This document shows, piece by piece, positions 12,816 to 57,030 of a stretch of 64,000 bases of DNA. Every line of letters begins with the position of its first letter. Positions within the stretch are counted from its first letter, which is position 1. The position numbers were made by a program, and so were the translations under genes. A model generated the notes under the pieces. It was given only the letters and a program-made list of their open reading frames with translations, was not told the DNA's origin and made no database searches. The stretch is taken from NCBI GenBank assembly GCA_964016885.1, contig OZ024742.1, positions 70,990,001-71,054,000 on the forward strand. The letters are read 5' to 3'. This DNA comes from Eledone cirrhosa (lineage: Eukaryota).

Positions 12816-12963
12816 GGTTTCTTACATAATGGTAAAGAGACTAAAACATTAGGCTTCTTATATAGTGGTCAATATATCAAAACATTAGGATTTTTACATA
12901 ATGGTAAAGATACTAAAAACATTAGTTTTCTTAGATAATGGTCAAGACACTAAAAATATTAGG
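12816..12963. repeat. Degenerate ~36-37 bp minisatellite, 4 units, next to the large satellite
   Basis: Units resemble ttcttacataatggtaaagagactaaaacattagg. Confidence 0.8.
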
Positions 12964-12984
12964 TTGCAGTATCATTGTTGTTGC

Positions 12985-15900
12985 TAGAGAAACTGAAGAA
13001 GCCAGTCATGTGTGTGTTTAGTAGACAGAAACTGATGAAGCCAGTCACATGTGTGTGTTTAGTAGACAGAAGCTGAAGAAGTTGGTCATATGTGTGTGTT
13101 TAGTAGATAGAAACTGAAGAAGCCAGTCATGTGTGTGTTTAGTAGACAGAAGCTGAAGAAGCCAGTCATGTGTGTGTTTAGTAGACAGAAACTGAAGAAG
13201 CCAGACATATGTGTGTGTTTGGTAGATAGAAACTGAAGAAGCCAGTCATGTGTGTGTTTAGTAGACAGAAGCTGAAGAAGCCAGTCATGTGTGTGTTTAG
13301 TAGACAGAAGCTGAAGAAGCCATTCATGTGTGTGTTTAGTAGACAGAAGCTGAAGAAGCCAGTCATGTGTGTGTTTAGTAGACAGAAACTGAAGAAGCCA
13401 GACATATGTGTGTGTTTAGTCGACAGAAGCTGAAGAAGCCAGACATATGTGTGTGTTTAGTCGACAGAAGCTGAAGAAGCCAGTCATGTGTGTGTTTAGT
13501 CGACAGAAGCTGAAGAAGCCAGTCATGTGTGTGTTTAGTAGACAGAAGCTGAAGAAGCCAGTCATGTGTGTGTTTAGTACACAGAAGCTGAAGAAGCCAG
13601 TCATGTGTGTGTTTAGTTGACAGAAACTGAAGAAGCCAGTCATATGTGTGTTTAGTTGACAGAAACTGAAGAAGCCAGTCATGTGTGTGTTTAGTAGACA
13701 GAAACTTAAGAACCCAGTCATGTGTGTGTTTAGTAGACAGAAGCTGAAGAAGCCAGTCATGTGTGTGTTTAGTAGACTGAAGCTGAAGAAGCCAGTCATG
13801 TGTGTGTTTAATAGACAGAAACTGAAGAAGCCAGTCATGTGTGTGTTTAGTAGACAGAAACTGAAGAAGCCAGTCATGTGTGTGTTTAGTAGACAGAAGC
13901 TGAAGAAGCCAGTCATGTGTGTGTTTAGTAGACAGAAGCTGAAGAAGCCAGTCATGTGTGTGTTTAGTAGACAGAAGCTGAAGAAGCCAGTCATGTGTGT
14001 GTTTAGTAGACAGAAGCTGAAGAAGCCAGTCATGTGTGTGTTTAGTAGACAGTAGCTGAAGAAGCCAGTCATGTGTATGTTTAGTTGACAGAAACTGAAG
14101 AAGCCAGTCATATGTGTGTTTAGTAGACAGAAGCTGAAGAAGCCAGTCATGTGTGTGTTTAGTTGACAGAAACTGAAGAAGCCAGTCATGTGTGTGTTTA
14201 GTTGACAGAAACTGAAGAAGCCAGTCATGTGTGTGTTTAGTTGACAGAAACTGAAGAAGCCAGTCATATGTGTGTTTAGTTGACAGAAACTGAAGAAGCC
14301 AGTCATGTGTGTGTTTAGTAGACAGAAGCTGAAGAAGCCAGTCATATGTGTGTTTAGTTGACAGAAACTGAAGAAGCCAGTCATATGTGTGTTTAGTTGA
14401 CAGAAACTGAAGAAGCCAGTCATGTGTGTGTTTAGTAGACAGAAGCTGAAGAACCCAGTCATATGTGTGTTTAGTTGACAGAAACTGAAGAAGCCAGTCA
14501 TATGTGTGTTTAGTTGACAGAAACTGAAGAAGCCAGTCATGTGTGTGTTTAGTAGACAGAAACTGAAGAAGCCAGTCATGTGTGTGTTTAGTAGACAGAA
14601 ACTGAAGAAGCCAGTCATGTGTGTGTTTAGTTGACAGAAACTGAAGAAGCCAGTCATATGTGTGTTTAGTTGACAGAAACTGAAGAAGCCAGTCATATGT
14701 GTGTTTAGTTGACAGAAACTGAAGAAGCCAGTCATGTGTGTGTTTAGTAGACAGAAGCTGAAGAACCCAGTCATGTGTGTGTTTAGTAGACAGAAGCTGA
14801 AGAAGCCAGTCATGTGTGTGTTTAGTAGACAGAAGCTGAAGAAGCCAGTCATGTGTGTGTTTAGTAGACAGAAGCTGAAGAAGCCAGTCATGTGTGTGTT
14901 TAGTAGACAGAAGCTGAAGAAGCCAGTCATATGTGTGTTTAGTAGACAGAAACTGAAGAACCCAGTCATGTGTGTGTTTAGTAGACAGAAGCTGAAGAAG
15001 CCAGTCATGTGTATGTTTAGTTGACAGAAACTGAAGAAGCCAGTCATGTGTGTGTTGAGTAGACAGAAACTGAAGAAGCCAGTCATGTGTGTGTTTAGTT
15101 GACAGAAACTGAAGCCAGTCATGTGTGTGTTTAGTAGACAGAAACTGAAGACGCCAGTCATGTGTGTGTTTAGTAGACAGAAACTGAAGAAGCCGGTCAT
15201 GTGTGTGTTTAGTAGACAGAAAGTGAAGAAACCAGTCATGTGTATGTTTAGTAGACAGAAAGTGAAGAAGCCAGTCATGTGTGTGTTTAGTAGACAGAAA
15301 CTGAAGAAGCCAGTCATGTGTGTGTTTAGTTGACAGAAACTGAAGCCAGTCATGTGTGTGTTTAGTTGACAGAAACTGAAGAAGCCAGTCATGTGTGTGT
15401 TTAGTTGACAGAAACTGAAGAAGCCAGTCATATGTGTGTTTAGTTGACAGAAACTGAAGAAGCCAGTCATGTGTGTGTTTAGTAGACAGAAACTTAAGAA
15501 CCCAGTCATGTGTGTGTTTAGTAGACAGAAGCTGAAGAAGCCAGTCATGTGTGTGTTTAGTAGACTGAAGCTGAAGAAGCCAGTCATGTGTGTGTTTAGT
15601 TGACAGAAAGTGAAGAAGCCAGTCATGTGTGTGTTTAGTAGATAGAAACTGAAGGCGCCAGTCATGTGTGTGTTTAGTAGACAGAAGCTGAAGAAGCCAG
15701 TCATGTGTGTGTTTAGTAGACAGAAGCTGAAGAAGCCAGTCATGTGTGTGTTTAGTTGACAGAAAGTGAAGAAGCCAGTCATGTGTGTGTTTAGTAGACA
15801 GAAGCTGAAGAAGCCAGTCATGTGTGTGTTTAGTTGACAGAAAGTGAAGAAGCCAGTCATGTGTGTGTTTAGTAGACAGAAGCTGAAGAAGCCAGTCATG

Positions 15901-18900
15901 TGTGTGTTTAGTAGACAGAAGCTGAAGAAGCCAGTCATGTGTGTGTTTAGTAGACAGAAGCTGAAGAAGCCAGTCATGTGTGTGTTTAGTAGACAGAAGC
16001 TGAAGAAGCCAGTCGTGTGTGTGTTTAGTAGACAGAAGCTGAAGAAGCCAGTCATGTGTGTGTTTAGTAGACAGAAGCTGAAGAAGCCAGTCATGTGTGT
16101 GTTTAGTAGACAGAAACTGAAGAAGCCAGTCATATGTGTGTTTAGTTGACAGAAACTGAAGAAGCCAGTCATGTGTGTGTTTAGTAGACAGAAGCTGAAG
16201 AAGCCAGTCATGTGTGTGTTTAGTAGACAGTAGCTGAAGAAGCCAGTCATGTGTATGTTTAGTTGACAGAAACTGAAGAAGCCAGTCATATGTGTGTTTA
16301 GTAGACAGAAGCTGAAGAAGCCAGTCATGTGTGTGTTTAGTTGACAGAAACTGAAGAAGCCAGTCATGTGTGTGTTTAGTTGACAGAAACTGAAGAAGCC
16401 AGTCATGTGTATGTTTAGTTGACAGAAACTGAAGAAGCCAGTCATGTGTGTGTTGAGTAGACAGAAACTGAAGAAGCCAGTCATGTGTGTGTTTAGTTGA
16501 CAGAAACTGAAGCCAGTCATGTGTGTGTTTAGTAGACAGAAACTGAAGACGCCAGTCATGTGTGTGTTTAGTAGACAGAAACTGAAGAAGCCGGTCATGT
16601 GTGTGTTTAGTAGACAGAAAGTGAAGAAACCAGTCATGTGTGTGTTTAGTAGACAGAAAGTGAAGAAGCCAGTCATGTGTGTGTTTAGTAGACAGAAACT
16701 GAAGAAGCCAGTCATGTGTGTGTTTAGTTGACAGAAACTGAAGCCAGTCATGTGTGTGTTTAGTTGACAGAAACTGAAGAAGCCAGTCATGTGTGTGTTT
16801 AGTTGACAGAAACTGAAGAAGCCAGTCATATGTGTGTTTAGTTGACAGAAACTGAAGAAGCCAGTCATGTGTGTGTTTAGTAGACAGAAACTTAAGAACC
16901 CAGTCATGTGTGTGTTTAGTAGACAGAAGCTGAAGAAGCCAGTCATGTGTGTGTTTAGTAGACTGAAGCTGAAGAAGCCAGTCATGTGTGTGTTTAGTAG
17001 ATAGAAACTGAAGGCGCCAGTCATGTGTGTGTTTAGTAGACAGAAACTGAAGAAGCCAGTCATGTGTGTGTTTAATAGACAGAAACTGAAGAAGCCAGTC
17101 ATGTGTGTGTTTAGTAGACAGAAACAGAAGAAGCCAGTCATGTGTGTGTTTAGTAGACAGAAGCTGAAGAAGCCAGTCATGTGTGTGTTTAGTAGACAGA
17201 AGCTGAAGAAGCCAGTCATATGTGTGTTTAGTTGACAGAAACTGAAGAAGCCAGTCATGTGTGTGTTTAGTAGACAGAAACTTAAGAACCCAGTCATGTG
17301 TGTGTTTAGTAGACAGAAGCTGAAGAAGCCAGTCATGTGTGTGTTTAGTAGACAGAAGCTGAAGAAGCCAGTCATATGTGTGTTTAGTAGACAGAAGCTG
17401 AAGAAGCCAGTCATGTGTGTGTTTAGTTGACAGAAACTGAAGAAGCCAGTCATGTGTGTGTTTAGTTGACAGAAACTGAAGAAGCCAGTCATGTGTGTGT
17501 TTAGTTGACAGAAACTGAAGAAGCCAGTCATGTGTGTGTTTAGTAGACAGAAACTGAAGAAGCCAGTCATGTGTGTGTTTAGTAGACAGAAGCTGAAGAA
17601 GCCAGTCATGTGTGTGTTTAGTAGACAGAAGCTGAAGAAGCCAGTCATATGTGTGTTTAGTAGACAGAAACTGAAGAACCCAGTCATGTGTGTGTTTAGT
17701 AGACAGAAGCTGAAGAAGCCAGTCATGTGTATGTTTAGTTGACAGAAACTGAAGAAGCCAGTCATGTGTGTGTTGAGTAGACAGAAACTGAAGAAGCCAG
17801 TCATGTGTGTGTTTAGTTGACAGAAACTGAAGCCAGTCATGTGTGTGTTTAGTAGACAGAAACTGAAGACGCCAGTCATGTGTGTGTTTAGTAGACAGAA
17901 ACTGAAGAAGCCGGTCATGTGTGTGTTTAGTAGACAGAAAGTGAAGAAACCAGTCATGTGTGTGTTTAGTAGACAGAAAGTGAAGAAGCCAGTCATGTGT
18001 GTGTTTAGTAGACAGAAACTGAAGAAGCCAGTCATGTGTGTGTTTAGTTGACAGAAACTGAAGCCAGTCATGTGTGTGTTTAGTTGACAGAAACTGAAGA
18101 AGCCAGTCATGTGTGTGTTTAGTTGACAGAAACTGAAGAAGCCAGTCATATGTGTGTTTAGTTGACAGAAACTGAAGAAGCCAGTCATGTGTGTGTTTAG
18201 TAGACAGAAACTTAAGAACCCAGTCATGTGTGTGTTTAGTAGACAGTAGCTGAAGAAGCCAGTCATGTGTGTGTTTAGTAGACTGAAGCTGAAGAAGCCA
18301 GTCATGTGTGTGTTTAGTAGATAGAAACTGAAGGCGCCAGTCATGTGTGTGTTTAGTAGACAGAAACTAAAGAAGCCAGTCATGTGTGTGTTTAATAGAC
18401 AGAAACTGAAGAAGCCAGTCATGTGTGTGTTTAGTAGACAGAAACAGAAGAAGCCAGTCATGTGTGTGTTTAGTAGACAGAAGCTGAAGAAGCCAGTCAT
18501 GTGTGTGTTTAGTAGACAGAAGCTGAAGAAGCCCGTCATGTGTGTGTTTAGTAGACAGAAGCTGAAGAAGCCAGTCATATGTGTGTTTAGTAGACAGAAA
18601 CTGAAGAACCCAGTCATGTGTGTGTTTAGTAGACAGAAGCTGAAGAAGCCAGTCATGTGTGTGTTTCGTCGACAGAAACTGAAGAAGCCAGTCATATGTG
18701 TGTTTAGTAGACAGAAACTGAAGAAGCCAGTCATGTGTGTGTTTAGTAGACAGAAGCTGAAGAAGCCAGTCATGTGTATGTTTAGTTGACAGAAACTGAA
18801 GAAGCCAGTCATGTGTGTGTTTAGTTGACAGAAACTGAAGAAGCCAGTCATATGTGTGTTTAGTTGACAGAAACTGAAGAACCCAGTCATGTGTGTGTTT

Positions 18901-21900
18901 AGTAGACAGAAGCTGAAGAAGCCAGTCATGTGTGTGTTTAGTAGACAGAAGCTGAAGAAGCCAGTCATATGTGTGTTTAGTAGACAGAAGCTGAAGAAGC
19001 CAGTCATGTGTGTGTTTAGTTGACAGAAAGTGAAGAAGCCAGTCATATGCGTGTTTAGTAGACAGAAGCTGAAGAAGCCAGTCTTGTGTGTGTTTAGTAG
19101 ACAGAAGCTGAAGAAGCCAGTCATGTGTGTGTTTAGTAGACAGAAGCTGAAGAAGCCAGTCATGTGTGTGTTTAGTAGACAGAAGCTGAAGAAGCCAGTC
19201 ATGTGTGTGTTTAGTAGACAGAAGCTGAAGAAGCCAGTCATATGTGTGTTTAGTAGACTGAAACTGAAGAACCCAGTCATGTGTGTGTTTAGTAGACAGA
19301 AGCTGAAGAAGCCAGTCATGTGTATGTTTAGTTGACAGAAACTGAAGAAGCCAGTCATGTGTGTGTTGAGTAGACAGAAACTGAAGAAGCCAGTCATGTG
19401 TGTGTTTAGTTGACAGAAACTGAAGCCAGTCACGTGTGTGTTTAGTAGACAGAAACTGAAGACGCCAGTCATGTGTGTGTTTAGTAGACAGAAACTGAAG
19501 AAGCCGGTCATGTGTGTGTTTAGTAGACAGAAAGTGAAGAAACCAGTCATGTGTGTGTTTAGTAGACAGAAAGTGAAGAAGCCAGTCATGTGTGTGTTTA
19601 GTAGACAGAAACTGAAGAAGCCAGTCATGTGTGTGTTTAGTTGACAGAAACTGAAGCCAGTCATGTGTGTGTTTAGTTGACAGAAACTGAAGAAGCCAGT
19701 CATGTGTGTGTTTAGTAGACAGAAGCTGAAGAAGCCAGTCATGTGTGTGTTTAGTTGACAGAAACTGAAGAAGCCAGTCATGTGTGTGTTTAGTTGACAG
19801 AAACTGAAGCCAGTCATGTGTGTGTTTAGTTGACAGAAACTGAAGAAGCCAGTCATGTGTGTGTTTAGTAGACAGAAGCTGAAGAAGCCAGTCATGTGTG
19901 TGTTTAGTTGACAGAAACTGAAGAAGCCAGTCATATGTGTGTTTAGTTGACAGAAACTGAAGAAGCCAGTCATGTGTGTGTTTAGTAGACAGAAACTTAA
20001 GAACCCAGTCATGTGTGTGTTTAGTAGACAGAAGCTGAAGAAGCCAGTCATGTGTGTGTTTAGTAGACTGAAGCTGAAGAAGCCAGTCATGTGTGTGTTT
20101 AGTAGATAGAAACTGAAGGCGCCAGTCATGTGTGTGTTTAGTAGACAGAAACTAAAGAAGCCAGTCATGTGTGTGTTTAATAGACAGAAACTGAAGAAGC
20201 CAGTCATGTGTGTGTTTAGTAGACAGAAACAGAAGAAGCCAGTCATGTGTGTGTTTAGTAGACAGAAGCTGAAGAAGCCAGTCATGTGTGTGTTTAGTAG
20301 ACAGAAGCTGAAGAAGCCAGTCATGTGTGTGTTTAGTAGACAGAAGCTGAAGAAGCCAGTCATATGTGTGTTTAGTAGACAGAAACTGAAGAACCCAGTC
20401 ATGTGTGTGTTTAGTAGACAGAAGCTGAAGAAGCCAGTCATGTGTGTGTTTCGTCGACAGAAACTGAAGAAGCCAGTCATGTGTGTGTTTAGTAGACAGA
20501 AGCTGAAGAAGCCAGTCATGTGTATGTTTAGTTGACAGAAACTGAAGAAGCCAGTCATATGTGTGTTTAGTTGACAGAAACTGAAGAACCCAGTCATGTG
20601 TGTGTTTAGTAGACAGAAGCTGAAGAAGCCAGTCATGTGTGTGTTTAGTAGACAGAAGCTGAAGAAGCCAGTCATATGTGTGTTTAGTAGACAGAAGCTG
20701 AAGAAGCCAGTCATGTGTGTGTTTAGTTGACAGAAAGTGAAGAAGCCAGTCATATGCGTGTTTAGTAGACAGAAGCTGAAGAAGCCAGTCATGTGTGTGT
20801 TTAGTAGACAGAAACTGAAGAAGCCAGTCATGTGTGTGTTTAGTAGACAGAAGCTGAAGAAGCCAGTCATATGTGTGTTTAGTAGACAGAAACTGAAGAA
20901 CCCAGTCATGTGTGTGTTTAGTAGACAGAAGCTGAAGAAGCCAGTCATGTGTGTGTTTATTCGACAGAAACTGAAGAAGCCAGTCATATGTGTGTTTAGT
21001 AGACAGAAGCTGAAGAAGCCAGTCATGTGTGTGTTTAGTAGACAGAAACTGAAGAAGCCAGTCATATGTGTGTTTAGTTGACAGAAACTGAAGCCAGTCA
21101 TGTGTGTGTTTAATAGACAGAAACTGAAGAAGCCAATTATGTGTGTGTTTAGTAGACAGAAACTGAAGAAGCCAGTCATGTGTGTGTTTAGTTGACAGAA
21201 ACTGAAGAAGCCAGTCATATGTGTGTTTAGTAGACAGAAGCTGAAGAAGCCAGTCATGTGTGTGTTTAGTTGACAGAAACTGAAGAAGCCAGTCATATGT
21301 GTGTTTAGTTGACAGAAACTGAAGAACCCAGTCATGTGTGTGTTTAGTAGACAGAAGCTGAAGAAGCCAGTCATGTGTGTGTTTAGTAGACAGAAGCTGA
21401 AGAAGCCAGTCATATGTGTGTTTTGTAGACAGAAACTGAAGAACCCAGTCATGTGTGTGTTTAGTAGACAGAAGCTGAAGAAGCCAGTCATGTGTGTGTT
21501 TAGTCGACAGAAACTGAAGAAGCCAGTCATGTGTGTGTTTAGTAGACAGAAGCTGAAGAAGCCAGTCATATGTGTGTTTAGTTGACAGAAAGTGAAGAAG
21601 CCAGTCATGTGTGTGTTTAGTAGACAGAAGCTGAAGAAGCCAGTCATATGTGTGTTTAGTTGACAGAAACTGAAGAAGCCAGTCATGTGTGTGTTTAGTA
21701 GACAGAAGCTGAAGAAGCCAGTCATGTGTGTGTTTAGTTGACAGAAAGTGAAGAAGCCAGTCATATGCGTGTTTAGTTGACAGAAGCTGAAGAAGCCAGT
21801 CATGTGTGTGTTTAGTAGACAGAAGCTGAAGAAGCCAGTCATGTGTGTGTTTAGTAGACAAAAACTGAAGACGCCAGTCATGTGTGTGTTTAGTAGACAG

Positions 21901-24900
21901 AAACTGAAGAAGCCGGTCATGTGTGTGTTTAGTAGACAGAAAGTGAAGAAACCAGTCATGTGTGTGTTTAGTAGACAGAAAGTGAAGAAGCCAGTCATGT
22001 GTGTGTTTAGTAGACAGAAACTGAAGAAGCCAGTCATGTGTGTGTTTAGTTGCCAGAAACTGAAGCCAGTCATGTGTGTGTTTAGTTGACAGAAACTGAA
22101 GAAGCCAGTCATGTGTGTGTTTAGTTGACAGAAACTGAAGAAGCCAGTCATATGTGTGTTTAGTTGACAGAAACTGAAGAAGCCAGTCATGTGTGTGTTT
22201 AGTAGACAAAAACTTAAGAACCCAGTCATGTGTATGTTTAGTAGACAGAAGCTGAAGAAGCCAGTCATGTGTGTGTTTAGTAGACTGAAGCTGAAGAAGC
22301 CAGTCATGTGTGTGTTTAGTAGATAGAAACTGAAGGCGCCAGTCATGTGTGTGTTTAGTAGACAGAAACTAAAGAAGCCAGTCATGTGTGTGTTTAATAG
22401 ACAGAAACTGAAGAAGCCAGTCATGTGTGTGTTTAGTAGACAGAAACAGAAGAAGCCAGTCATGTGTGTGTTTAGTAGACAGAAGCTGAAGAAGCCAGTC
22501 ATGTGTGTGTTTAGTAGACAGAAGCTGAAGAAGCCCGTCATGTGTGTGTTTAGTAGACAGAAGCTGAAGAAGCCAGTCATATGTGTGTTTAGTAGACAGA
22601 AACTGAAGAACCCAGTCATGTGTGTGTTTAGTAGACAGAAGCTGAAGAAGCCAGTCATGTGTGTGTTTCGTCGACAGAAACTGAAGAAGCCAGTCATATG
22701 TGTGTTTAGTAGACAGAAACTGAAGAAGCCAGTCATGTGTGTGTTTAGTAGACAGAAGCTGAAGAAGCCAGTCATGTGTGTGTTTAGTAGACAGAAGCTG
22801 AAGAAGCCAGTCATGTGTGTGTTTAGTTGACAGAAACTGAAGAAGCCAGTCATATGTGTGTTTAGTTGACAGAAACTGAAGAACCCAGTCATGTGTGTGT
22901 TTAGTAGACAGAAGCTGAAGAAGCCAGTCATGTGTGTGTTTAGTAGACAGAAGCTGAAGAAGCCAGTCATATGTGTGTTTAGTAGACAGAAGCTGAAGAA
23001 GCCAGTCATGTGTGTGTTTAGTTGACAGAAAGTGAAGAAGCCAGTCATATGCGTGTTTAGTAGACAGAAGCTGAAGAAGCCAGTCATGTGTGTGTTTAGT
23101 AGACAGAAGCTGAAGAAGCCAGTCATGTGTGTGTTTAGTAGACAGAAGCTGAAGAAGCCAGTCATGTGTGTGTTTAGTAGACAGAAGCTGAAGAAGCCAG
23201 TCATGTGTGTGTTTAGTAGACAGAAGCTGAAGAAGCCAGTCATGTGTGTGTTTAGTAGACAGAAGCTGAAGAAGCCAGTCATATGTGTGTTTAGTAGACA
23301 GAAACTGAAGAACCCAGTCATGTGTGTGTTTAGTAGACAGAAGCTGAAGAAGCCAGTCATGTGTATGTTTAATAGACAGAAACTGAAGAAGCCAGTCATG
23401 TGTGTGTTGAGTAGACAGAAACTGAAGAAGCCAGTCATGTGTGTGTTTAGTTGACAGAAACTGAAGCCAGTCACGTGTGTGTTTAGTAGACAGAAACTGA
23501 AGACGCCAGTCATGTGTGTGTTTAGTAGACAGAAACTGAAGAAGCCGGTCATGTGTGTGTTTAGTAGACAGAAAGTGAAGAAACCAGTCATGTGTGTGTT
23601 TAGTAGACAGAAAGTGAAGAAGCCAGTCATGTGTGTGTTTAGTAGACAGAAACTGAAGAAGCCAGTCATGTGTGTGTTTAGTTGACAGAAACTGAAGCCA
23701 GTCATGTGTGTGTTTAGTTGACAGAAACTGAAGAAGCCAGTCATGTGTGTGTTTAGTTGACAGAAACTGAAGAAGCCAGTCATATGTGTGTTTAGTTGAC
23801 AGAAACTGAAGAAGCCAGTCATGTGTGTGTTTAGTAGACAGAAACTTAAGAACCCAGTCATGTGTGTGTTTAGTAGACAGAAGCTGAAGAAGCCAGTCAT
23901 GTGTGTGTTTAGTAGACTGAAGCTGAAGAAGCCAGTCATGTGTGTGTTTAGTAGATAGAAACTGAAGGCGCCAGTCATGTGTGTGTTTAGTAGACAGAAA
24001 CTAAAGAAGCCAGTCATGTGTGTGTTTAATAGACAGAAACTGAAGAAGCCAGTCATGTGTGTGTTTAGTAGACAGAAACAGAAGAAGCCAGTCATGTGTG
24101 TGTTTAGTAGACAGAAGCTGAAGAAGCCAGTCATGTGTGTGTTTAGTAGACAGAAGCTGAAGAAGCCAGTCATGTGTGTGTTTAGTAGACAGAAGCTGAA
24201 GAAGCCAGTCATATGTGTGTTTAGTAAACAGAAACTGAAGAACCCAGTCATGTGTGTGTTTAGTAGACAGAAGCTGAAGAAGCCAGTCATGTGTGTGTTT
24301 CGTCGACAGAAACTGAAGAAGCCAGTCATATGTGTGTTTAGTAGACAGAAACTGAAGAAGCCAGTCATGTGTGTGTTTAGTAGACAGAAGCTGAAGAAGC
24401 CAGTCATGTGTATGTTTAGTTGACAGAAACTGAAGAAGCCAGTCATATGTGTGTTTAGTAGACAGAAGCTGAAGAAGCCAGTCATGTGTGTGTTTAGTTG
24501 ACAGAAACTGAAGAAGCCAGTCATATGTGTGTTTAGTTGACAGAAACTGAAGAACCCAGTCATGTGTGTGTTTAGTAGACAGAAGCTGAAGAAGCCAGTC
24601 ATGTGTGTGTTTAGTAGACAGAAGCTGAAGAAGCCAGTCATATGTGTGTTTAGTAGACAGAAGCTGAAGAAGCCAGTCATATGTGTGTTTAGTAGACAGA
24701 AACTGAAGAACCCAGTCATGTGTGTGTTTAGTAGACAGAAGCTGAAGAAGCCAGTCATGTGTGTGTTTAGTAGACAGAAGCTGAAGAAGCCAGTCATATG
24801 TGTGTTTAGTAGACAGAAGCTGAAGAAGCCAGTCATGTGTGTGTTTAGTTGACAGAAAGTGAAGAAGCCAGTCATATGCGTGTTTAGTAGACAGAAGCTG

Positions 24901-45900: not shown

Positions 45901-48900
45901 AAACTGAAGAAGCCAGTCATATGTGTGTTTAGTTGACAGAAACTGAAGAACCCAGTCATGTGTGTGTTTAGTAGACAGAAGCTGAAGAAGCCAGTCATGT
46001 GTGTGTTTAGTAGACAGAAGCTGAAGAAGCCAGTCATATGTGTGTTTTGTAGACAGAAACTGAAGAACCCAGTCATGTGTGTGTTTAGTAGACTGAAGCT
46101 GAAGAAGCCAGTCATGTGTGTGTTTAGTAGATAGAAACTGAAGGCGCCAGTCATGTGTGTGTTTAGTAGACAGAAACTAAAGAAGCCAGTCATGTGTGTG
46201 TTTAATAGACAGAAACTGAAGAAGCCAGTCATGTGTGTGTTTAGTAGACAGAAACAGAAGAAGCCAGTCATGTGTGTGTTTAGTAGACAGAAGCTGAAGA
46301 AGCCAGTCATGTGTGTGTTTAGTAGACAGAAGCTGAAGAAGCCAGTCATGTGTGTGTTTAGTAGACAGAAGCTGAAGAAGCCAGTCATATGTGTGTTTAG
46401 TAGACAGAAACTGAAGAACCCAGTCATGTGTGTGTTTAGTAGACAGAAGCTGAAGAAGCCAGTCATGTGTGTGTTTCGTCGACAGAAACTGAAGAAGCCA
46501 GTCATGTGTGTGTTTAGTAGACAGAAGCTGAAGAAGCCAGTCATGTGTATGTTTAGTTGACAGAAACTGAAGAAGCCAGTCATATGTGTGTTTAGTAGAC
46601 AGAAGCTGAAGAAGCCAGTCATGTGTGTGTTTAGTAGACAGAAACTGAAGAAGCCAGTCATGTGTGTGTTTAGTAGACAGAAGCTGAAGAAGCCAGTCAT
46701 GTGTATGTTTAGTTGACAGAAACTGAAGAAGCCAGTCATATGTGTGTTTAGTAGACAGAAGCTGAAGAAGCCAGTCATGTGTGTGTTTAGTTGACAGAAA
46801 CTGAAGAAGCCAGTCATATGTGTGTTTAGTTGACAGAAACTGAAGAACCCAGTCATGTGTGTGTTTAGTAGACAGAAGCTGAAGAAGCCAGTCATGTGTG
46901 TGTTTAGTAGACAGAAGCTGAAGAAGCCAGTCATATGTGTGTTTAGTAGACAGAAGCTGAAGAAGCCAGTCATGTGTGTGTTTAGTTGACAGAAAGTGAA
47001 GAAGCCAGTCATATGCGTGTTTAGTAGACAGAAGCTGAAGAAGCCAGTCATGTGTGTGTTTAGTAGACAGAAGCTGAAGAAGCCAGTCATGTGTGTGTTT
47101 AGTAGACAGAAGCTGAAGAAGCCAGTCATGTGTGTGTTTAGTAGACAGAAACTGAAGAAGCCAGTCATGTGTGTGTTTAGTAGACAGAAGCTGAAGAAGC
47201 CAGTCATATGTGTGTTTAGTAGACAGAAACTGAAGAACCCAGTCATGTGTGTGTTTAGTAGACAGAAGCTGAAGAAGCCAGTCATGTGTATGTTTAGTTG
47301 ACAGAAACTGAAGAAGCCAGTCATGTGTGTGTTGAGTAGACAGAAACTGAAGAAGCCAGTCATGTGTGTGTTTAATAGACAGAAACTGAAGCCAGTCATG
47401 TGTGTGTTTAGTAGACAGAAACTGAAGACGCCAGTCATGTGTGTGTTTAGTAGACAGAAACTGAAGAAGCCGGTCATGTGTGTGTTTAGTAGACAGAAAG
47501 TGAAGAAACCAGTCATGTGTGTGTTTAGTAGACAGAAAGTGAAGAAGCCAGTCATGTGTGTGTTTAGTAAACAGAAACTGAAGAAGCCAGTCATGTGTGT
47601 GTTTAGTTGACAGAAACTGAAGCCAGTCATGTGTGTGTTTAGTTGACAGAAACTGAAGAAGCCAGTCATGTGTGTGTTTAGTTGACAGAAACTGAAGCCA
47701 GTCATGTGTGTGTTTAGTTGACAGAAACTGAAGAAGCCAGTCATGTGTGTGTTTAGTTGACAGAAACTGAAGAAGCCAGTCATATGTGTGTTTAGTTGAC
47801 AGAAACTGAAGAAGCCAGTCATGTGTGTGTTTAGTAGACAGAAACTTAAGAACCCAGTCATGTGTGTGTTTAGTAGACAGAAGCTGAAGAAGCCAGTCAT
47901 GTGTGTGTTTAGTAGACTGAAGCTGAAGAAGCCAGTCATGTGTGTGTTTAGTAGATAGAAACTGAAGGCGCCAGTCATGTGTGTGTTTAGTAGACAGAAA
48001 CTAAAGAAGCCAGTCATGTGTGTGTTTAGTAGACAGAAGCTGAAGAAGCCAGTCATGTGTGTGTTTCGTCGACAGAAACTGAAGAAGCCAGTCATATGTG
48101 TGTTTAGTAGACAGAAACTGAAGAAGCCAGTCATGTGTGTGTTTAGTAGACAGAAGCTGAAGAAGCCAGTCATGTGTATGTTTAGTTGACAGAAACTGAA
48201 GAAGCCAGTCATATGTGTGTTTAGTAGACAGAAGCTGAAGAAGCCAGTCATGTGTGTGTTTAGTTGACAGAAACTGAAGAAGCCAGTCATATGTGTGTTT
48301 AGTTGACAGAAACTGAAGAACCCAGTCATGTGTGTGTTTAGTAGACAGAAGCTGAAGAAGCCAGTCATGTGTGTGTTTAGTAGACAGAAGCTGAAGAAGC
48401 CAGTCATATGTGTGTTTAGTAGACAGAAGCTGAAGAAGCCAGTCATGTGTGTGTTTAGTTGACAGAAAGTGAAGAAGCCAGTCATATGCGTGTTTAGTAG
48501 ACAGAAGCTGAAGAAGCCAGTCATGTGTGTGTTTAGTAGACAGAAACTGAAGAAGCCAGTCATGTGTGTGTTTAGTAGACAGAAGCTGAAGAAGCCAGTC
48601 ATATGTGTGTTTAGTAGACAGAAACTGAAGAACCCAGTCATGTGTGTGTTTAGTAGACAGAAGCTGAAGAAGCCAGTCATGTGTGTGTTTAGTCGACAGA
48701 AACTGAAGAAGCCAGTCATATGTGTGTTTAGTAGACAGAAGCTGAAGAAGCCAGTCATGTGTGTGTTTAGTAAACAGAAACTGAAGAAGCCAGTCATATG
48801 TGTGTTTAGTTGACAGAAACTGAAGCCAGTCATGTGTGTGTTTAATAGACAGAAACTGAAGAAGCCAATTATGTGTGTGTTTAGTAGACAGAAACTGAAG

Positions 48901-51900
48901 AAGCCAGTCATGTGTGTGTTTAGTTGACAGAAACTGAAGAAGCCAGTCATATGTGTGTTTAGTAGACAGAAGCTGAAGAAGCCAGTCATGTGTGTGTTTA
49001 GTTGACAGAAACTGAAGAAGCCAGTCATATGTGTGTTTAGTTGACAGAAACTGAAGAACCCAGTCATGTGTGTGTTTAGTAGACAGAAGCTGAAGAAGCC
49101 AGTCATGTGTGTGTTTAGTAGACAGAAGCTGAAGAAGCCAGTCATATGTGTGTTTTGTAGACAGAAACTGAAGAACCCAGTTATGTGTGTGTTTAGTAGA
49201 CAGAAGCTGAAGAAGCCAGTCATGTGTGTGTTTAGTCGACAGAAACTGAAGAAGCCAGTCATATGTGTGTTTAGTAGACAGAAACTGAAGAAGCCAGTCA
49301 TGTGTGTGTTTAGTAGACAGAAGCTGAAGAAGCCAGTCATGTGTATGTTTAGTTGACAGAAACTGAAGAAGCCAGTCATATGTGTGTTTAGTAGACAGAA
49401 GCTGAAGAAGCCAGTCATGTGTGTGTTTAGTTGACAGAAACTGAAGAAGCCAGTCATATGTGTGTTTAGTTGACAGAAACTGAAGAACCCAGTCATGTGT
49501 GTGTTTAGTAGACAGAAGCTGAAGAAGCCAGTCATGTGTGTGTTTAGTAGACAGAAGCTGAAGAAGCCAGTCATATGTGTGTTTAGTAGACAGAAGCTGA
49601 AGAAGCCAGTCATGTGTGTGTTTAGTTGACAGAAAGTGAAGAAGCCAGTCATATGCGTGTTTAGTTGACAGAAGCTGAAGAAGCCAGTCATGTGTGTGTT
49701 TAGTAGACAGAAGCTGAAGAAGCCAGTCATGTGTGTGTTTAGTAGACAGAAACTGAAGACGCCAGTCATGTGAGTGTTTAGTAGACAGAAACTGAAGAAG
49801 CCGGTCATGTGTGTGTTTAGTAGACAGAAGCTGAAGAAGCCAGTCATATGTGTGTTTAGTAGACAGAAGCTGAAGAAGCCAGTCATGTGTGTGTTTAGTT
49901 GACAGAAACTGAAGAAGCCAGTCATGTGAGTGTTTAGTAGACAGAAACTGAAGAAGCCAGTCATGTGTGTGTTTAGTAGACAGAAGCTGAAGAAGCCAGT
50001 CATGTGTGTGTTTAGTTGACAGAAACTGAAGAAGCCAGTCATGTGTATGTTTAGTAGACAGAAAGTGAAGAAGCCAGTCATGTGTGTGTTTAGTAGACAG
50101 AAGCTGAAGAAGCCAGTCATATGTGTGTTTAGTAGACAGAAACTGAAGAAGCCAGTCATGTGTATGTTTAGTAGACAGAAAGTGAAGAAGCCAGTCATGT
50201 GTGTGTTTAGTAGACAGAAACTGAAGAAGCCAGTCATGTGTGTGTTTAGTTGACAGAAACTGAAGCCAGTCATGTGTGTGTTTAGTTGACAGAAACTGAA
50301 GAAGCCAGTCATGTGTGTGTTTAGTTGACAGAAACTGAAGAAGCCAGTCATATGTGTGTTTAGTTGACAGAAACTGAAGAAGCCAGTCATGTGTGTGTTT
50401 AGTAGACAGAAACTTAAGAACCCAGTCATGTGTGTGTTTAGTAGACAGAAGCTGAAGAAGCCAGTCATGTGTGTGTTTAGTAGACTGAAGCTGAAGAAGC
50501 CAGTCATGTGTGTGTTTAGTAGATAGAAACTGAAGGCGCCAGTCATGTGTGTGTTTAGTAGACAGAAACTAAAGAAGCCAGTCATGTGTGTGTTTAATAG
50601 ACAGAAACTGAAGAAGCCAGTCATGTGTGTGTTTAGTAGACAGAAACAGAAGAAGCCAGTCATGTGTGTGTTTAGTAGACAGAAGCTGAAGAAGCCAGTC
50701 ATGTGTGTGTTTAGTAGACAGAAGCTGAAGAACCCAGTCATGTGTGTGTTTAGTAGACAGAAGCTGAAGAAGCCAGTCATGTGTGTGTTTCGTCGACAGA
50801 AACTGAAGAAGCCAGTCATATGTGTGTTTAGTAGACAGAAACTGAAGAAGCCAGTCATGTGTGTGTTTAGTAGACAGAAGCTGAAGAAGCCAGTCATGTG
50901 TATGTTTAGTTGACAGAAACTGAAGAAGCCAGTCATATGTGTGTTTAGTAGACAGAAGCTGAAGAAGCCAGTCATGTGTGTGTTTAGTTGACAGAAACTG
51001 AAGAAGCCAGTCATATGTGTGTTTAGTTGACAGAAACTGAAGAACCCAGTCATGTGTGTGTTTAGTAGACAGAAGCTGAAGAAGCCAGTCATGTGTGTGT
51101 TTAGTAGACAGAAGCTGAAGAAGCCAGTCATATGTGTGTTTAGTAGACAGAAAGTGAAGAAGCCAGTCATGTGTGTGTTTAGTTGACAGAAAGTGAAGAA
51201 GCCAGTCATATGCGTGTTTAGTAGACAGAAGCTGAAGAAGCCAGTCATATGTGTGTTTAGTAGACAGAAGCTGAAGAAGCCAGTCATGTGTGTGTTTAGT
51301 TGACAGAAACTGAAGAAGCCAGTCATGTGTGTGTTTAGTTGACAGAAAGTGAAGAAGCCAGTCATATGCGTGTTTAGTAGACAGAAGCTGAAGAAGCCAG
51401 TCATGTGTGTGTTTAGTAGACAGAAGCTGAAGAAGCCAGTCATGTGTGTGTTTAGTAGACAGAAGCTGAAGAAGCCAGTCATGTGTGTGTTTAGTAGACA
51501 GAAGCTGAAGAAGCCAGTCATGTGTGTGTTTAGTAGACAGAAGCTGAAGAAGCCAGTCATGTGTGTGTTTAGTAGACAGAAGCTGAAGAAGCCAGTCATA
51601 TGTGTGTTTAGTAGACAGAAACTGAAGAACCCAGTCATGTGTGTGTTTAGTAGACAGAAGCTGAAGAAGCCAGTCATGTGTATGTTTAGTTGACAGAAAC
51701 TGAAGAAGCCAGTCATGTGTGTGTTGAGTAGACAGAAACTGAAGAAGCCAGTCATGTGTGTGTTTAGTTGACAGAAACTGAAGAAGCCAGTCATATGTGT
51801 GTTTAGTAGACAGAAGCTGAAGAAGCCAGTCATGTGTGTGTTTAGTAGACAGAAGCTGAAGAAGCCAGTCATGTGTGTGTTTAGTAGACAGAAGCTGAAG

Positions 51901-54900
51901 AAGCCAGTCATGTGTGTGTTTAGTAGACAGAAGCTGAAGAAGCCAGTCATGTGTGTGTTTAGTAGACAGAAGCTGAAGAAGCCAGTCATGTGTGTGTTTA
52001 GTAGACAGAAGCTGAAGAAGCCAGTCATGTGTGTGTTTAGTTGACAGAAACTGAAGCCAGTCATGTGTGTGTTTAGTTGACAGAAACTGAAGACGCCAGT
52101 CATGTGTGTGTTTAGTAGACAGAAACTGAAGAAGCCGGTCATGTGTGTGTTTAGTAGACAGAAAGTGAAGAAACCAGTCATGTGTGTGTTTAGTAGACAG
52201 AAAGTGAAGAAGCCAGTCATGTGTGTGTTTAGTAGACAGAAACTGAAGAAGCCAGTCATGTGTGTGTTTAGTTGACAGAAACTGAAGAAGCCAGTCATGT
52301 GTGTGTTTAGTTGACAGAAACTGAAGCCAGTCACGTGTGTGTTTAGTAGACAGAAGCTGAAGAAGCCAGTCATGTGTGTGTTTAGTAGACAGAAACTGAA
52401 GAAGCCGGTCATGTGTGTGTTTAGTAGACAGAAACTGAAGAAGCCAGTCATGTGTGTGTTTAGTAGACAGAAACTGAAGAAGCCGGTCATGTGTGTGTTT
52501 AGTAGACAGAAAGTGAAGAAACCAGTCATGTGTGTGTTTAGTAGACAGAAAGTGAAGAAACCAGTCATGTGTGTGTTTAGTAGACAGAAAGTGAAGAAGC
52601 CAGTCATGTGTGTGTTTAGTAGACAGAAACTGAAGAAGCCAGTCATGTGTGTGTTTAGTTGACAGAAACTGAAGAAGCCAGTCATGTGTGTGTTTAGTTG
52701 ACAGAAACTGAAGAAGCCGGTCATGTGTGTGTTTAGTAGACAGAAAGTGAAGAAGCCAGTCATGTGTGTGTTTAGTAGACAGAAACTGAAGAAGCCAGTC
52801 ATGTGTGTGTTTAGTAGACAGAAGCTGAAGAAGCCTGTCATGTGTATGTTTAGTTGACAGAAACTGAAGAAGCCAGTCATGTGTGTGTTTAGTAGACAGA
52901 AACTGAAGAACCCAGTCATGTGTGTGTTTAGTTGACAGAAACTGAAGAAGCCAGTCATGTGTGTGTTTAGTTGACAGAAACTGAAGAAGCCAGTCATATG
53001 TGTGTTTAGTTGACAGAAACTGAAGAAGCCAGTCATGTGTGTGTTTAGTAGACAGAAACTTAAGAACCCAGTCATGTGTGTGTTTAGTAGACAGAAGCTG
53101 AAGAAGCCAGTCATGTGTGTGTTTAGTAGACTGAAGCTGAAGAAGCCAGTCATGTGTGTGTTTAGTAGACAGAAACTAAAGAAGCCAGTCATGTGTGTGT
53201 TTAATAGACAGAAACTGAAGAAGCCAGTCATGTGTGTGTTTAGTAGACAGAAACAGAAGAAGCCAGTCATGTGTGTGTTTAGTAGACAGAAGCTGAAGAA
53301 GCCAGTCATGTGTGTGTTTAGTAGACAGAAGCTGAAGAAGCCAGTCATGTGTGTGTTTAGTAGACAGAAGCTGAAGAAGCCAGTCATATGTGTGTTTAGT
53401 AGACAGAAACTGAAGAACCCAGTCATGTGTGTGTTTAGTAGACAGAAGCTGAAGAAGCCAGTCATGTGTGTGTTTCGTCGACAGAAACTGAAGAAGCCAG
53501 TCATATGTGTGTTTAGTAGACAGAAACTGAAGAAGCCAGTCATGTGTGTGTTTAGTAGACAGAAGCTGAAGAAGCCAGTCATGTGTATGTTTAGTTGACA
53601 GAAACTGAAGAAGCCAGTCATATGTGTGTTTAGTAGACAGAAGCTGAAGAAGCCAGTCATGTGTGTGTTTAGTTGACAGAAACTGAAGAAGCCAGTCATA
53701 TGTGTGTTTAGTTGACAGAAACTGAAGAACCCAGTCATGTGTGTGTTTAGTAGACAGAAGCTGAAGAAGCCAGTCATGTGTGTGTTTAGTAGACAGAAGC
53801 TGAAGAAGCCAGTCATATGTGTGTTTAGTAGACAGAAGCTGAAGAAGCCAGTCATGTGTGTGTTTAGTTGACAGAAAGTGAAGAAGCCAGTCATATGCGT
53901 GTTTAGTAGACAGAAGCTGAAGAAGCCAGTCATGTGTGTGTTTAGTAGACAGAAACTGAAGAAGCCAGTCATGTGTGTGTTTAGTAGACAGAAGCTGAAG
54001 AAGCCAGTCATATGTGTGTTTAGTAGACAGAAACTGAAGAACCCAGTCATGTGTGTGTTTAGTAGACAGAAGCTGAAGAAGCCAGTCATGTGTGTGTTTA
54101 GTCGACAGAAACTGAAGAAGCCAGTCATATGTGTGTTTAGTAGACAGAAGCTGAAGAAGCCAGTCATGTGTGTGTTTAGTAGACAGAAACTGAAGCCAGT
54201 CATGTGTGTGTTTAATAGACAGAAACTGAAGAAGCCAATTATGTGTGTGTTTAGTAGACAGAAACTGAAGAAGCCAGTCATGTGTGTGTTTAGTTGACAG
54301 AAACTGAAGAAGCCAGTCATATGTGTGTTTAGTAGACAGAAGCTGAAGAAGCCAGTCATGTGTGTGTTTAGTTGACAGAAACTGAAGAAGCCAGTCATAT
54401 GTGTGTTTAGTTGACAGAAACTGAAGAACCCAGTCATGTGTGTGTTTAGTAGACAGAAGCTGAAGAAGCCAGTCATGTGTGTGTTTAGTAGACAGAAGCT
54501 GAAGAAGCCAGTCATATGTGTGTTTTGTAGACAGAAACTGAAGAACCCAGTCATGTGTGTGTTTAGTAGACAGAAGCTGAAGAAGCCAGTCATGTGTATG
54601 TTTAGTTGACAGAAACTGAAGAAGCCAGTCATGTGTGTGTTTAGTTGACAGAAACTGAAGCCAGTCATGTGTGTGTTTAGTAGACAGAAGCTGAAGAAGC
54701 CAGTCATATGTGTGTTTAGTAGACAGAAACTGAAGAACCCAGTCATGTGTGTGTTTAGTAGACAGAAACTGAAGAACCCAGTCATGTGTGTGTTTAGTAG
54801 ACAGAAGCTGAAGAAGCCAGTCATGTGTGTGTTTAGTAGACAGAAGCTGAAGAAGCCAGTCATGTGTGTGTTTAGTAGACTGAAGCTGAAGAAGCCAGTC

Positions 54901-56910
54901 ATGTGTGTGTTTAATAGACAGAAACTGAAGACGCCAGTCATGTGTGTGTTGAGTAGACAGAAACTGAAGAAGCCAGTCATGTGTGTGTTAAGTAGACAGA
55001 AAGTGAAGACGCCAGTCATGTGTGTGTTTAGTAGACAGAAACTGAAGAAGCCAGTCATGTGTGTGTTTAGTAGACAGAAGCTGAAGAAGCCAGTCATGTG
55101 TGTGTTTAGTAGACAGAAGCTGAAGAAGCCAGTCATGTGTGTGTTTAGTAGACAGAAACTGAAGAACCCAGTCATGTGTGTGTTTAGTAGACAGAAACTG
55201 AAGAAGCCAGTCATATGTGTGTTTAGTAGACAGAAACTGAAGAAGCCAGTCATATGTGTGTTTAGTTGACAGAAAGTGAAGAAGCCAGTCATGTGTGTGT
55301 TTAATAGACAGAAACTGAAGAAGCCAGTCATGTGTGTGTTTAGTTGACAGAAACTGAAGAAGCCAGTCATGTGTGTGTTTAGTCGACAGAAACTGAAGAA
55401 GCCAGTCATGTGTGTGTTTAGTTGACAGAAACTGAAGAAGCCAGTCATGTGTGTGTTTAATAGACAGAAACTGAAGACGCCAGTCATATGTGTGTTTAAT
55501 AGACAGAAACTGAAGAAGCCAGTCATGTGTGTGTTTAGTCGACAGAAACTGAAGAAGCCAGTCATGTGTGTGTTTAATAGACAGAAACTGAAGAAGCCAG
55601 TCATGTGTGTGTTTAATAGACAGAAACTGAAGAAGCCAGTCATGTGTGTGTTTAGTCGACAGAAACTGAAGAAGCCAGTCATGTGTGTGTTTAATAGACA
55701 GAAACTGAAGACGCCAGTCATATGTGTGTTTAGTTGACAGAAACTGAAGAAGCCAGTCATGTGCGTGTTTAGTTGACAGAAAGTGAAGAACCCAGTCATG
55801 TGTGTGTTTAGTAGACAGAAGCTGAAGAAGCCAGTCATGTGTGTGTTTAGTAGACAGAAGCTGAAGAAGCCAGTCATATGTGTGTTTAGTAGACAGAAGC
55901 TGAAGAAGCCAGTCATGTGTGTGTTTAGTAGACAGAAGCTGAAGAAGCCAGTCATATGTGTGTTTAGTAGACAGAAGCTGAAGAAGCCAGTCATGTGTGT
56001 GTTTAGTTGACAGAAAGTGAAGAACCCAGTCATGTGTGTGTTTAGTAGACAGAAGCTGAAGAAGCTAGTCATGTGTGTGTTTAGTAGACAGAAGCTGAAG
56101 AAGCCAGTCATATGTGTGTTTAGTAGACAGAAGCTGAAGAAGCCAGTCATGTGTGTGTTTAGTTGACAGAAAGTGAAGAAGCCAGTCATATGCGTGTTTA
56201 GTTGGCAGAAGCTGAAGAAGCCAGTCATATGTGTGTTTAGTAGACAGAAGCTGAAGAAGCCAGTCATGTGTGTGTTTAGTAGACAGAAACTGAAGAAGCC
56301 AGTCATGTGTGTGTTTAATAGACAGAAACTGAAGAAGCCAGTCATGTGTGTGTTTAGTAGACAGAAACTGAAGAAGCCAGTCATGTGTGTGTTAAGTAAA
56401 CAGAAAGTGAAGACGCCAGTCATGTGTATGTTTAATAGACAGAAACTGAAGACGCCAGTCATGTGTGTGTTTAGTAGACAGAAAGTGAAGACGCCAGTCA
56501 TGTGTGTGTTAAGTAGACAGAAAGTGAAGACGCCAGTCATGTGTGTGTTAAGTAGACAGAAAGTGAAGACGCCAGTCATGTGTGTGTTTAGTAGACAGAA
56601 AGTGAAGACGCCAGTCATGTGTGTGTTAAGTAGACAGAAAGTGAAGACGCCAGTCATGTGTGTGTTAAGTAGACAGAAAGTGAAGACGCCAGTCATGTGT
56701 GTGTTAAGTAGACAGAAAGTGAAGACGCCAGTCATATGTGTGTTAAGTAGACAGAAAGTGAAGACGCCAGTCATGTGTGTGTTAAGTAGACAGAAAGTGA
56801 AGACGCCAGTCATGTGTGTGTTTAGTAGACAGAAAGTGAAGACGCCAGTCATGTGTGTGTATGCTTAATAGATACAAACTGATGAAGGCAGTCATGTATG
56901 TGTGTGTGTT
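12985..56910. repeat. Giant intronic 39-bp tandem satellite, ~1,130 units, consensus TTTAGTAGACAGAARCTGAAGAAGCCAGTCATGTGTGTG
   Basis: Directly visible. 36-bp units (one GAA lost) are scattered through it, and 41-bp or degenerate units occur only at the edges. It fills the intron 12687-57030. Confidence 0.99.
13416..56852 (-). other. Uninterrupted 14,478-codon ORF, (MTGFFSFCLLNTH)n, within the satellite; coding function unproven
   Basis: From the ORF track; one unit equals 13 codons and the ORF ends coincide with the degenerate array edges. The confidence value refers to it being a real protein-coding gene. Confidence 0.1.
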
Positions 56911-57030
56911 ATTTATATTGACACCATAGCATCTGGGGCAAGATAAGTGGTAATTTATTTAATATGTAATGTTATGTTTTGTATTCTTGTTGACACTTCT
57001 TAATATTTCCAATTTCTATTTTGTTTTCAG

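What the first reader, a model, noticed from the sequence alone, without database searches (positions are those of the whole stretch)
13416..56852. 43.4-kb antisense ORF (14,478 aa of MTGFFSFCLLNTH repeats) nested in a TOM70 intron, with frame-preserving variation
Seen: three frames are open in the consensus unit, but only this one stays open across ~1,100 units. Every internal length variant I saw is a 3-bp loss, although each unit has a (TG)n tract that does slip by 2 bp in edge units (~13020-13460). Many recurrent variants are synonymous here: Ser AGT/AGC, His CAC/CAT, Gly GGC/GGG/GGT, Thr ACT/ACC/ACG/ACA, Leu CTA/CTC/CTT/TTA, Phe TTC/TTT, Cys TGT/TGC. My rough hand tally is ~17 synonymous versus ~26 non-synonymous variant types. 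Inference: it could encode a giant hydrophobic Phe/Cys/His repeat polypeptide, or serve as a template for repeat-associated translation. Strong caveat: only one single-base change from the consensus (TGT>TGA) gives a stop in this frame, and recent amplification homogenises units, so neutrality may explain it.
Basis: partly seen in the sequence, partly recalled or inferred. Interest (0 to 1): 0.72.

Follow-up and report, generated by a model that had tools for sequence, protein, structure and literature searches.

The report
SINE-born minisatellite in octopus TOM70 intron
A 39-base piece of a common jumping-DNA element is repeated about 1,130 times inside one spliced-out intron of an octopus TOM70 gene; its 14,478-codon backwards reading frame is real but is likely a by-product of the repeat, although silent changes in it are more frequent than chance predicts and remain unexplained.

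Summary
The ORF is real: minus strand 56852-13416, 14,478 codons, no stop. It lies in a single-locus array of 1,128 units of 39 bp that fills 99% of intron 5 of an octopus TOM70 gene, and a transcript-like contig joins the exons across it. The unit matches the middle of a dispersed SINE-like element at 29 of 32 bases, plus its (TG)n tract; that frame is already open in 24 of 27 dispersed copies. The array holds only 42 substitution types and one 3-bp deletion type, spread by block duplications. Only 1 of 117 possible changes makes a stop, so an open frame is likely by chance (P 0.41-0.69). Giant arrays fill 10 of 84 sampled 10-kb stretches, and one holds 6,000-codon ORFs. A related species seems to have only a short, frameshifted array here. 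Against neutrality: 16 of 42 variant types are synonymous (9.5-11.4 expected, P 0.001-0.015, one of three open frames), and no mutation model removed this. Amino-acid changes are not conservative. Verdict: a SINE-derived minisatellite, likely a passenger. This scan noted a similar 13,000-codon array elsewhere in this genome.

The parts
13416..56852 (-). Open reading frame, 14,478 codons plus stop; about 1,115 repeats of a 13-residue unit; lies wholly inside the array
12988..56903 (+). 39-bp minisatellite, 1,128 units, 95 distinct unit sequences, single locus in the assembly
   Evidence: all 372 exact genome-wide pattern matches are accounted for by the window
12988..13465 (+). Left edge: older, more diverged units, five of them 41 bp (+2 before the TG tract); the last of these shifts the ORF into its stop
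18362..53171 (+). Core made of irregular higher-order blocks of about 30-100 units; a marker unit recurs 17 times; exact repeats up to 42 units long
56831..56903 (+). Degenerate right terminal units (one of 43 bp); hold an upstream out-of-frame ATG at 56895 (37 codons) on the minus strand
12687..57030 (+). TOM70 intron 5 (counted by coding blocks), GT..AG, 44,344 bp, 99% array
   Evidence: joined across by a contig of run X5
12583..12686 (+). TOM70 exon upstream of the array
57031..57238 (+). TOM70 exon downstream of the array; 91% identical to Octopus vulgaris TOM70
3815..3940 (+). TOM70 coding block (TPR region), approximate ends
10735..10857 (+). TOM70 coding block, approximate ends
   Evidence: loose end of the X5 contig
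59019..59153 (+). TOM70 exon
61564..61689 (+). TOM70 coding block, approximate ends
63576..63704 (+). TOM70 coding block, approximate ends
2134..2296 (+). A dispersed copy of the SINE-like element from which the unit derives

Best explanation
The ORF lies in a SINE-derived minisatellite that is spliced out with a TOM70 intron, and it is likely an untranslated by-product of a 39-base unit with one stop-poor frame. Shown: the unit is a 32-bp middle piece of a dispersed SINE-like element plus a short TG tract; the array is single-locus, homogeneous and built of repeated blocks; the exons are joined across it. Inferred: a SINE fragment was duplicated to a few TG-variable copies before the split from a related species; one lineage then fixed a 39-bp length and grew to about 44 kb by unequal exchange or replication-coupled block duplication. 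Growth was too recent for more than about 42 substitution types and one in-frame deletion to spread, and none hit the one stop-making site. The synonymous excess is then a tail event among the many such arrays in this genome.
For: Unit versus element consensus: 29 of 32 bases, alignment score 68 against a maximum of 37 in 2,000 shuffled units. The frame is open in 24 of 27 dispersed copies that could be placed. P(no stop) is 0.41-0.69 for 42 types under five neutral samplings. Control arrays gave 29 frameshift indel types per 457 substitution types in 7 arrays, so about 2.7 are expected here (P0 0.07; 0.14 without the noisiest array); the array has 1-2 such types, at its left edge. 10 of 84 arbitrarily placed 10-kb stretches are at least 80% one tandem array; one holds ORFs of 6,268 and 6,151 codons. 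A 1,967-nt contig of run X5 joins 12583-12686, 57029-57238 and 59019-59153 with no other letters. In organism B (about 6-9% intron divergence) one 833-nt contig at flank-like depth carries the left flank and units with a TG insertion and a longer TG tract. Replacement types average BLOSUM -0.69 against -0.48 possible (P 0.83); Leu>Gln is in 283 units.
Against: 16 of 42 types are synonymous against 9.5-11.4 expected; P 0.001-0.015 (all types) and 0.0005-0.028 (30 recurrent types) under Ts/Tv, 6- and 12-class, site-permutation, neighbour-matched, context-model and SINE-weighted nulls; one run gave P 0.0003. 0 of 60 and 0 of 72 control frames (overlapping sets of arrays) reached P 0.015. Singletons are 2 of 12 synonymous, recurrent types 14 of 30 (Fisher p 0.09), the direction selection would give. 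The 1,115-unit run without a frameshift is the longest among the giant arrays tiled (next 600 and 333). The control with 6,000-codon ORFs is a (GGT)n-rich unit whose slippage is in-frame by nature. Orthology of the organism-B contig rests on a 25-bp flank match.
Confidence: 0.9

Rival explanations
1. A young nested antisense gene: the array is transcribed from the minus strand and translated into a giant Phe/Thr/Leu-rich repeat polypeptide under weak purifying selection, exapted from a SINE fragment.
For: Synonymous excess in exactly the frame that stays open; no such excess in 72 control frames; no interior frameshift in 1,115 units; an in-frame ATG in nearly every unit (1,097 Met).
Against: The excess is not significant for the 22 types with 10 or more copies (P 0.08-0.16); copy numbers of synonymous and other types do not differ (p 0.11) and replacements are radical; the same peptide is read from non-coding dispersed copies; no unique leader or tail, weak ATG context and an upstream out-of-frame ATG; frame-breaking units at the apparent orthologous site in organism B.
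Confidence: 0.04
2. Repeat-associated translation from intron-derived or antisense RNA makes small amounts of repeat peptide without selection, as in human repeat-expansion loci (mechanism recalled; listings).
For: The array is necessarily transcribed in sense as pre-mRNA (host gene spliced across it).
Against: The sense open frame is broken by 307 stop-bearing units, so long products need antisense RNA, for which there is no evidence; the unit is 41% GC, unlike the GC-rich short repeats usually involved (recalled). It would not explain the synonymous excess.
Confidence: 0.03
3. Assembly artefact: consensus polishing removed indels, or the array length is inflated.
For: Raw long reads were not available; runs X1 and X2 may be the sample that was assembled and are contigs, which drop rare variants.
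Against: Short-read contigs of X1 and X2 pile up at depths of 15,000-33,000 on edge units against 12-15 on the flanks (summed depth, not a copy number) and list no indel on the units other than the known edge +2; other arrays of the same assembly do show 1-, 2- and 4-bp indel units; the fine block structure is not what a collapsed repeat would give.
Confidence: 0.03

Closest known systems
SINE-derived satellites (sSats) of squamate reptiles, Vassetzky et al. 2023, PMC10702118 (abstract, Discussion and section 17 read)
   Same: Tandem repeats of a portion of a SINE; loci of up to about 1,000 units; long loci more homogeneous; copy number can differ at orthologous loci of related species.
   Different: Mollusc host; single locus, in an intron, not subtelomeric (position 71 Mb on a 379-Mb contig); no extended SINE terminus found beside the array (most sSats have one; minor variants lack it); short 39-bp unit divisible by three, which gives a giant ORF.
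Single-locus intronic minisatellites / VNTRs with interspersed variant units (human CACNA1C 30-bp and ABCA7 25-bp arrays; names taken from earlier scan notes and a listing, papers not read)
   Same: Intronic, single-locus, variant units interspersed, diverged edges.
   Different: About 44 kb and 99% of the intron; such arrays are common in this genome.
Octopus tRNA-derived SINEs (OK, OR1, OR2 of Ohshima and Okada 1994; OR2 named as a CORE-SINE in PMC4758252, passages read; the 1994 paper was not seen)
   Same: The parent element is an abundant dispersed repeat of about 350 bp with A- and B-box-like motifs in its head (by eye, consensus recalled) and an A-rich end.
   Different: No sequence comparison with the named families was possible; ARAGORN and Rfam found no tRNA in five copies each.
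Giant coding VNTR exons (mucin, titin or filaggrin type; recalled)
   Same: One very long repeat ORF with in-frame length variants.
   Different: Those are exons of spliced genes with unique ends and conserved orthologues; this ORF begins and ends inside an intronic array on the opposite strand.

Membership tests
SINE-derived satellite | Unit is homologous to part of a dispersed SINE-like element | tested here: met
   29 of 32 bases; score 68 against a shuffled maximum of 37; 1,799 first-look candidates, 40 scored; 27 profile hits in about 0.8 Mb
SINE-derived satellite | Head-to-tail tandem array with homogenised units | tested here: met
   1,128 units, 93% matches, 95 unit types, repeated blocks
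SINE-derived satellite | Extended terminal unit reaching a SINE end (usual, not obligatory) | tested here: not met
   The profile of the element's head found no hit next to the array; the nearest hit on the left is at 2134-2296. The right flank was compared by eye only.
tRNA-derived SINE (parent element) | tRNA-related head with A and B boxes | tested here: inconclusive
   Box-like motifs seen by eye in the alignment (consensus recalled); ARAGORN 0 of 5 loci, Rfam no tRNA match in 5 loci
tRNA-derived SINE (parent element) | Short, non-coding, high-copy, A-rich 3' end | tested here: met
   About 140-bp head, the 32-bp piece, a TG tract and about 200 conserved bases ending in an A-rich stretch
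tRNA-derived SINE (parent element) | Target-site duplications and a LINE-related tail | not tested
   Not examined
CORE-SINE OR2 of Octopus | Sequence identity with the CORE domain and with OR2 | not testable with these tools
   No library of transposable elements is held; the 1994 paper is not in the library
Protein-coding VNTR gene | Uninterrupted frame | tested here: met
Protein-coding VNTR gene | Purifying selection on the peptide | tested here: inconclusive
   Synonymous excess P 0.001-0.015, but no conservative bias and no excess among common types
Protein-coding VNTR gene | Frame kept in a related species | tested here: not met
   Organism B contig has a TG insertion and a longer TG tract at the apparent orthologous site; orthology rests on a 25-bp flank match
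Protein-coding VNTR gene | Minus-strand transcript and translation | not testable with these tools
   Only unstranded contigs were available

The most novel reading that the evidence does not exclude
A recently expanded SINE-derived array has become a nested antisense gene. It is translated into a 1.6-MDa hydrophobic repeat polypeptide under weak purifying selection, as the synonymous excess in the one intact frame hints. This would be de novo birth of a giant protein from a SINE fragment within one octopus lineage.
Probability: 0.04. Interest if true: 0.85.

Novelty: new member of a known kind. Interest (0 to 1): 0.17.

Why it matters
As best read it is ordinary for this genome, but it shows two useful things. 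First, SINE-derived satellites, described in reptiles, also arise in an octopus, and one has swollen an intron of a core mitochondrial import gene to 44 kb while the exons are still joined exactly. Second, it is a worked warning: where about a tenth of a genome is giant minisatellite, ORFs of thousands of codons arise with no gene behind them. If the synonymous excess held up in other haplotypes and translation were shown, it would be a striking case of de novo giant-gene birth that could be tested directly.

Tried and rejected
Expression: the run search gave 'no RNA holder listed'; no evidence either way. Run X5 is of unrecorded kind, and I read it as RNA only because one contig joins exons. 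It also holds two short array-type contigs (69 and 86 nt); contigs give neither strand nor level, so I draw nothing from them. RAD-seq run X6 had no reads on the edge units, which is uninformative. Protein searches with 300 residues of the ORF: 0 of 7,998 scored candidates at E 0.001, lengths 165-525 only; Atlas first hit 0.90, an unnamed cluster, with recognition 652, within what shuffled sequences give; neither bears on whether it is a gene. Explanations of the synonymous excess that failed: transition bias, 6- and 12-class spectra and site hot spots, neighbour-matching changes (19 of 42 observed, 53 of 117 possible) and a context model from 17 control arrays, site rates in 43 dispersed copies (synonymous ratio 0.95 in this frame; weighted P 0.0014). 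A first translation of the dispersed copies used the wrong frame (10 of 27 open) and was redone in the ORF frame (24 of 27). tRNA searches on the element's head were blank. Rows dropped: control arrays were filtered by match rate, period, copy number and sequence complexity, which removed the 45-bp array of L133 from the tiling (its longest ORF is 1,581 codons in 50 kb); only arrays with at least 10, 9 or 13 variant types entered the tests; L027 duplicates L026 and was left out but not of the alignment; two requested stretches did not exist.
Full report
1. Observation. The ORF is there. Six-frame translation gives one stop-free stretch of 14,482 codons on the minus strand, and 56852..13416 gives 14,478 residues plus a stop. 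It lies inside a 39-bp tandem array at 12988-56903. Tiling gives 1,128 units but only 95 distinct sequences: 1,082 of 39 bp, 40 of 36 bp, five of 41 bp at the left edge and one of 43 bp at the right end. All 40 short units have the same 3-bp loss, so they are one indel type. The ORF stops because it crosses the last +2 edge unit.

2. Host gene. An exon peptide finds TOM70 structures as its best natural matches. The exon after the array is 91% identical to Octopus vulgaris TOM70 and 80% to that of Argonauta. The O. vulgaris protein maps in 12 ordered blocks on the plus strand, seven of them in the window. The array fills 43,916 of the 44,344 bases of the fifth intron (GT at 12687, AG at 57030). 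One 1,967-nt contig of run X5 joins 12583-12686, 57029-57238 and 59019-59153 with no other letters, and its loose end matches the exon before. The run's kind is not on record; I infer RNA from the joins. So the intron is removed exactly in at least that sample.

3. Origin of the unit. A search of the genome with six units found this locus and three weak 40-48-bp matches elsewhere. An exact unit pattern has 372 matches in the assembly and 372 in the window, so the array is single-locus. The weak matches belong to a dispersed repeat (1,799 candidates, 40 scored). Its consensus from 32 rows matches the unit at 29 of 32 bases and is followed by a TG tract; the alignment scores 68 against at most 37 for 2,000 shuffled units. 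The element has a head of about 140 bp with A- and B-box-like motifs (by eye; the box consensus is recalled) and about 200 conserved bases after the TG tract, ending in an A-rich stretch. A profile found 27 hits in about 0.8 Mb. I call it SINE-like: ARAGORN and Rfam did not confirm a tRNA head. The ORF frame is open over the 11 homologous codons in 24 of 27 copies, and L028 and L036 read MTGFCSFCLPN. The peptide is therefore inherited from a non-coding repeat.

4. History. The core consists of irregular blocks of about 30-100 units. A marker unit recurs 17 times and identical runs reach 42 units. Only 12 variant types are singletons in 43 kb, so the expansion is recent. Short-read contigs of X1 and X2 reach summed depths of 15,000-33,000 on edge units against 12-15 on the flanks. 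This is not a copy number, but it shows amplification in raw data; these runs may be the assembled sample. Run X4, a related species with about 6-9% intron divergence, shows depth 7-35 there. One 833-nt contig of X4 carries 25 bp of the left flank and units with a TG insertion and a longer TG tract. It shares two base variants with an edge unit of the window. I infer a short, length-variable ancestral array and a lineage-specific expansion of the 39-bp form.

5. Is the open frame more than chance? Drawing 42 types at random leaves this frame without a stop with P 0.41-0.69, against 0.003-0.10 for the other two open frames, which are indeed broken. Among 20,000 shuffled units, 98.5% have an open frame, 11% have one with at most one stop-making change, and about 35% would keep some frame open after 42 types. 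Seven control arrays of the same assembly have 29 frameshift indel types per 457 substitution types. That predicts 2.7 here, P(none) 0.07, or 0.14 without the noisiest array; this array has 1-2 such types, at its left edge. Its 1,115-unit run without a frameshift is still the longest among those tiled. Giant arrays are common: 10 of 84 arbitrarily placed 10-kb stretches are at least 80% one array, about half of them with a period divisible by three. One of them, (GGT)n-rich, holds ORFs of 6,268 and 6,151 codons; others reach 992-2,289. A rough extrapolation (inference, assuming about 50 kb per array) gives thousands of giant arrays and tens of intact giant ORFs in the genome.

6. The result against my reading. 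The synonymous share is high: 16 of 42 against 9.5-11.4 expected. P is 0.001-0.015 under Ts/Tv, 6- and 12-class, site-permutation, neighbour-matched, context-model and SINE-weighted nulls, and 0.0005-0.028 for the 30 recurrent types. One run with 41 types gave 0.0003. The other two open frames show nothing (P 0.07-0.82). None of 60, and later 72, control frames reached 0.015 (overlapping arrays), so the test is not loose. Singletons are 2 of 12 synonymous and recurrent types 14 of 30 (p 0.09). After allowing for three frames, P is about 0.003-0.05 for all types. Other marks of selection are absent. The excess is not significant for the 22 types with at least 10 copies (P 0.08-0.16). Copy numbers do not differ (p 0.11). 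Replacements are no more conservative than chance (BLOSUM -0.69 against -0.48), and Leu>Gln (283 units) and Leu>Arg (60) are common. The ORF has no unique leader or tail, and an out-of-frame ATG lies 43 bases upstream. With thousands of open frames in such arrays, several to tens should reach this P by chance (inference). I therefore treat it as an unexplained tail event and give the coding reading about 4%.

7. Mechanism. Shown: SINE-derived unit, single locus, block structure, exact joining of the exons, stop-poor frame. Inferred: seeding by a SINE fragment next to its TG tract, growth by unequal exchange or block duplication, tolerance by the host gene, and no translation. Untested: antisense transcription, translation, length polymorphism and any effect on TOM70 output.

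8. Comparison with what is known. It works like, and meets the two core tests of, the SINE-derived satellites of reptiles (PMC10702118; abstract, Discussion and section 17 read, supplements not seen). It differs in host, in being single-locus and intronic, and in lacking a detected SINE end beside the array. That paper says it is uncertain whether such satellites are restricted to squamates. Six searches (listings and abstract starts only) showed no report of such an array in an octopus; subscription papers, including the 1994 octopus SINE paper cited in PMC4758252 (passages read), are not held. It does not qualify as a coding VNTR gene: the frame seems broken in a relative, selection is inconclusive and expression is untested. 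Earlier unreviewed notes of this scan describe other giant intronic arrays in this genome, one with two 13,000-codon frames. I did not check those loci, but my own sampling shows that such arrays are common.

9. Verdict. Observation confirmed. New member of a known kind: a SINE-derived intronic minisatellite whose giant ORF is likely accidental (0.9). Interest 0.17, kept above the floor by the unexplained synonymous skew and the SINE origin.

Noticed in passing
window 5843-9200, minus strand: Frameshifted pieces that read like a non-LTR retrotransposon (endonuclease-like 333-codon frame at 8199-9200, reverse-transcriptase-like pieces at 7145-8048) inside TOM70 intron 3; labels by eye.
   Followed up: no
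window 4098-4970: Broken frames that look like a mariner/Tc1-type transposase remnant (by eye).
   Followed up: no
window 931-1254: A 30-bp minisatellite (10.8 copies, no indels) that also gives overlapping ORFs of 209, 169 and 101 codons: a small in-window example of the same effect.
   Followed up: partly
window 12815-12965: A 36-bp, 4-copy minisatellite just left of the array; organism B seems to have further copies here (joint 12900 to 12815).
   Followed up: no
L137, L136, L135, L062 (G000:C3:70930001-70967445): A 44-bp array of at least 37 kb (852 units) ends about 16 kb upstream of the first TOM70 coding block.
   Followed up: partly
L104, L152, L155 (G000:C7:50001501-50020304): An 18.6-kb 30/33-bp (GGT)n-rich array with minus-strand ORFs of 6,268 (His-rich) and 6,151 (Thr-rich) codons.
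   Followed up: partly
84 sampled 10-kb stretches of G000: About 13% of sampled bases lie in tandem arrays of 2 kb or more; several exceed 30-50 kb (periods 16, 19, 27/30, 45, 48, 65).
   Followed up: partly
window about 63330-63450, minus strand: A diverged inverted copy of the same SINE-like element in a later TOM70 intron; it could pair weakly with array RNA in the pre-mRNA (speculation).
   Followed up: no
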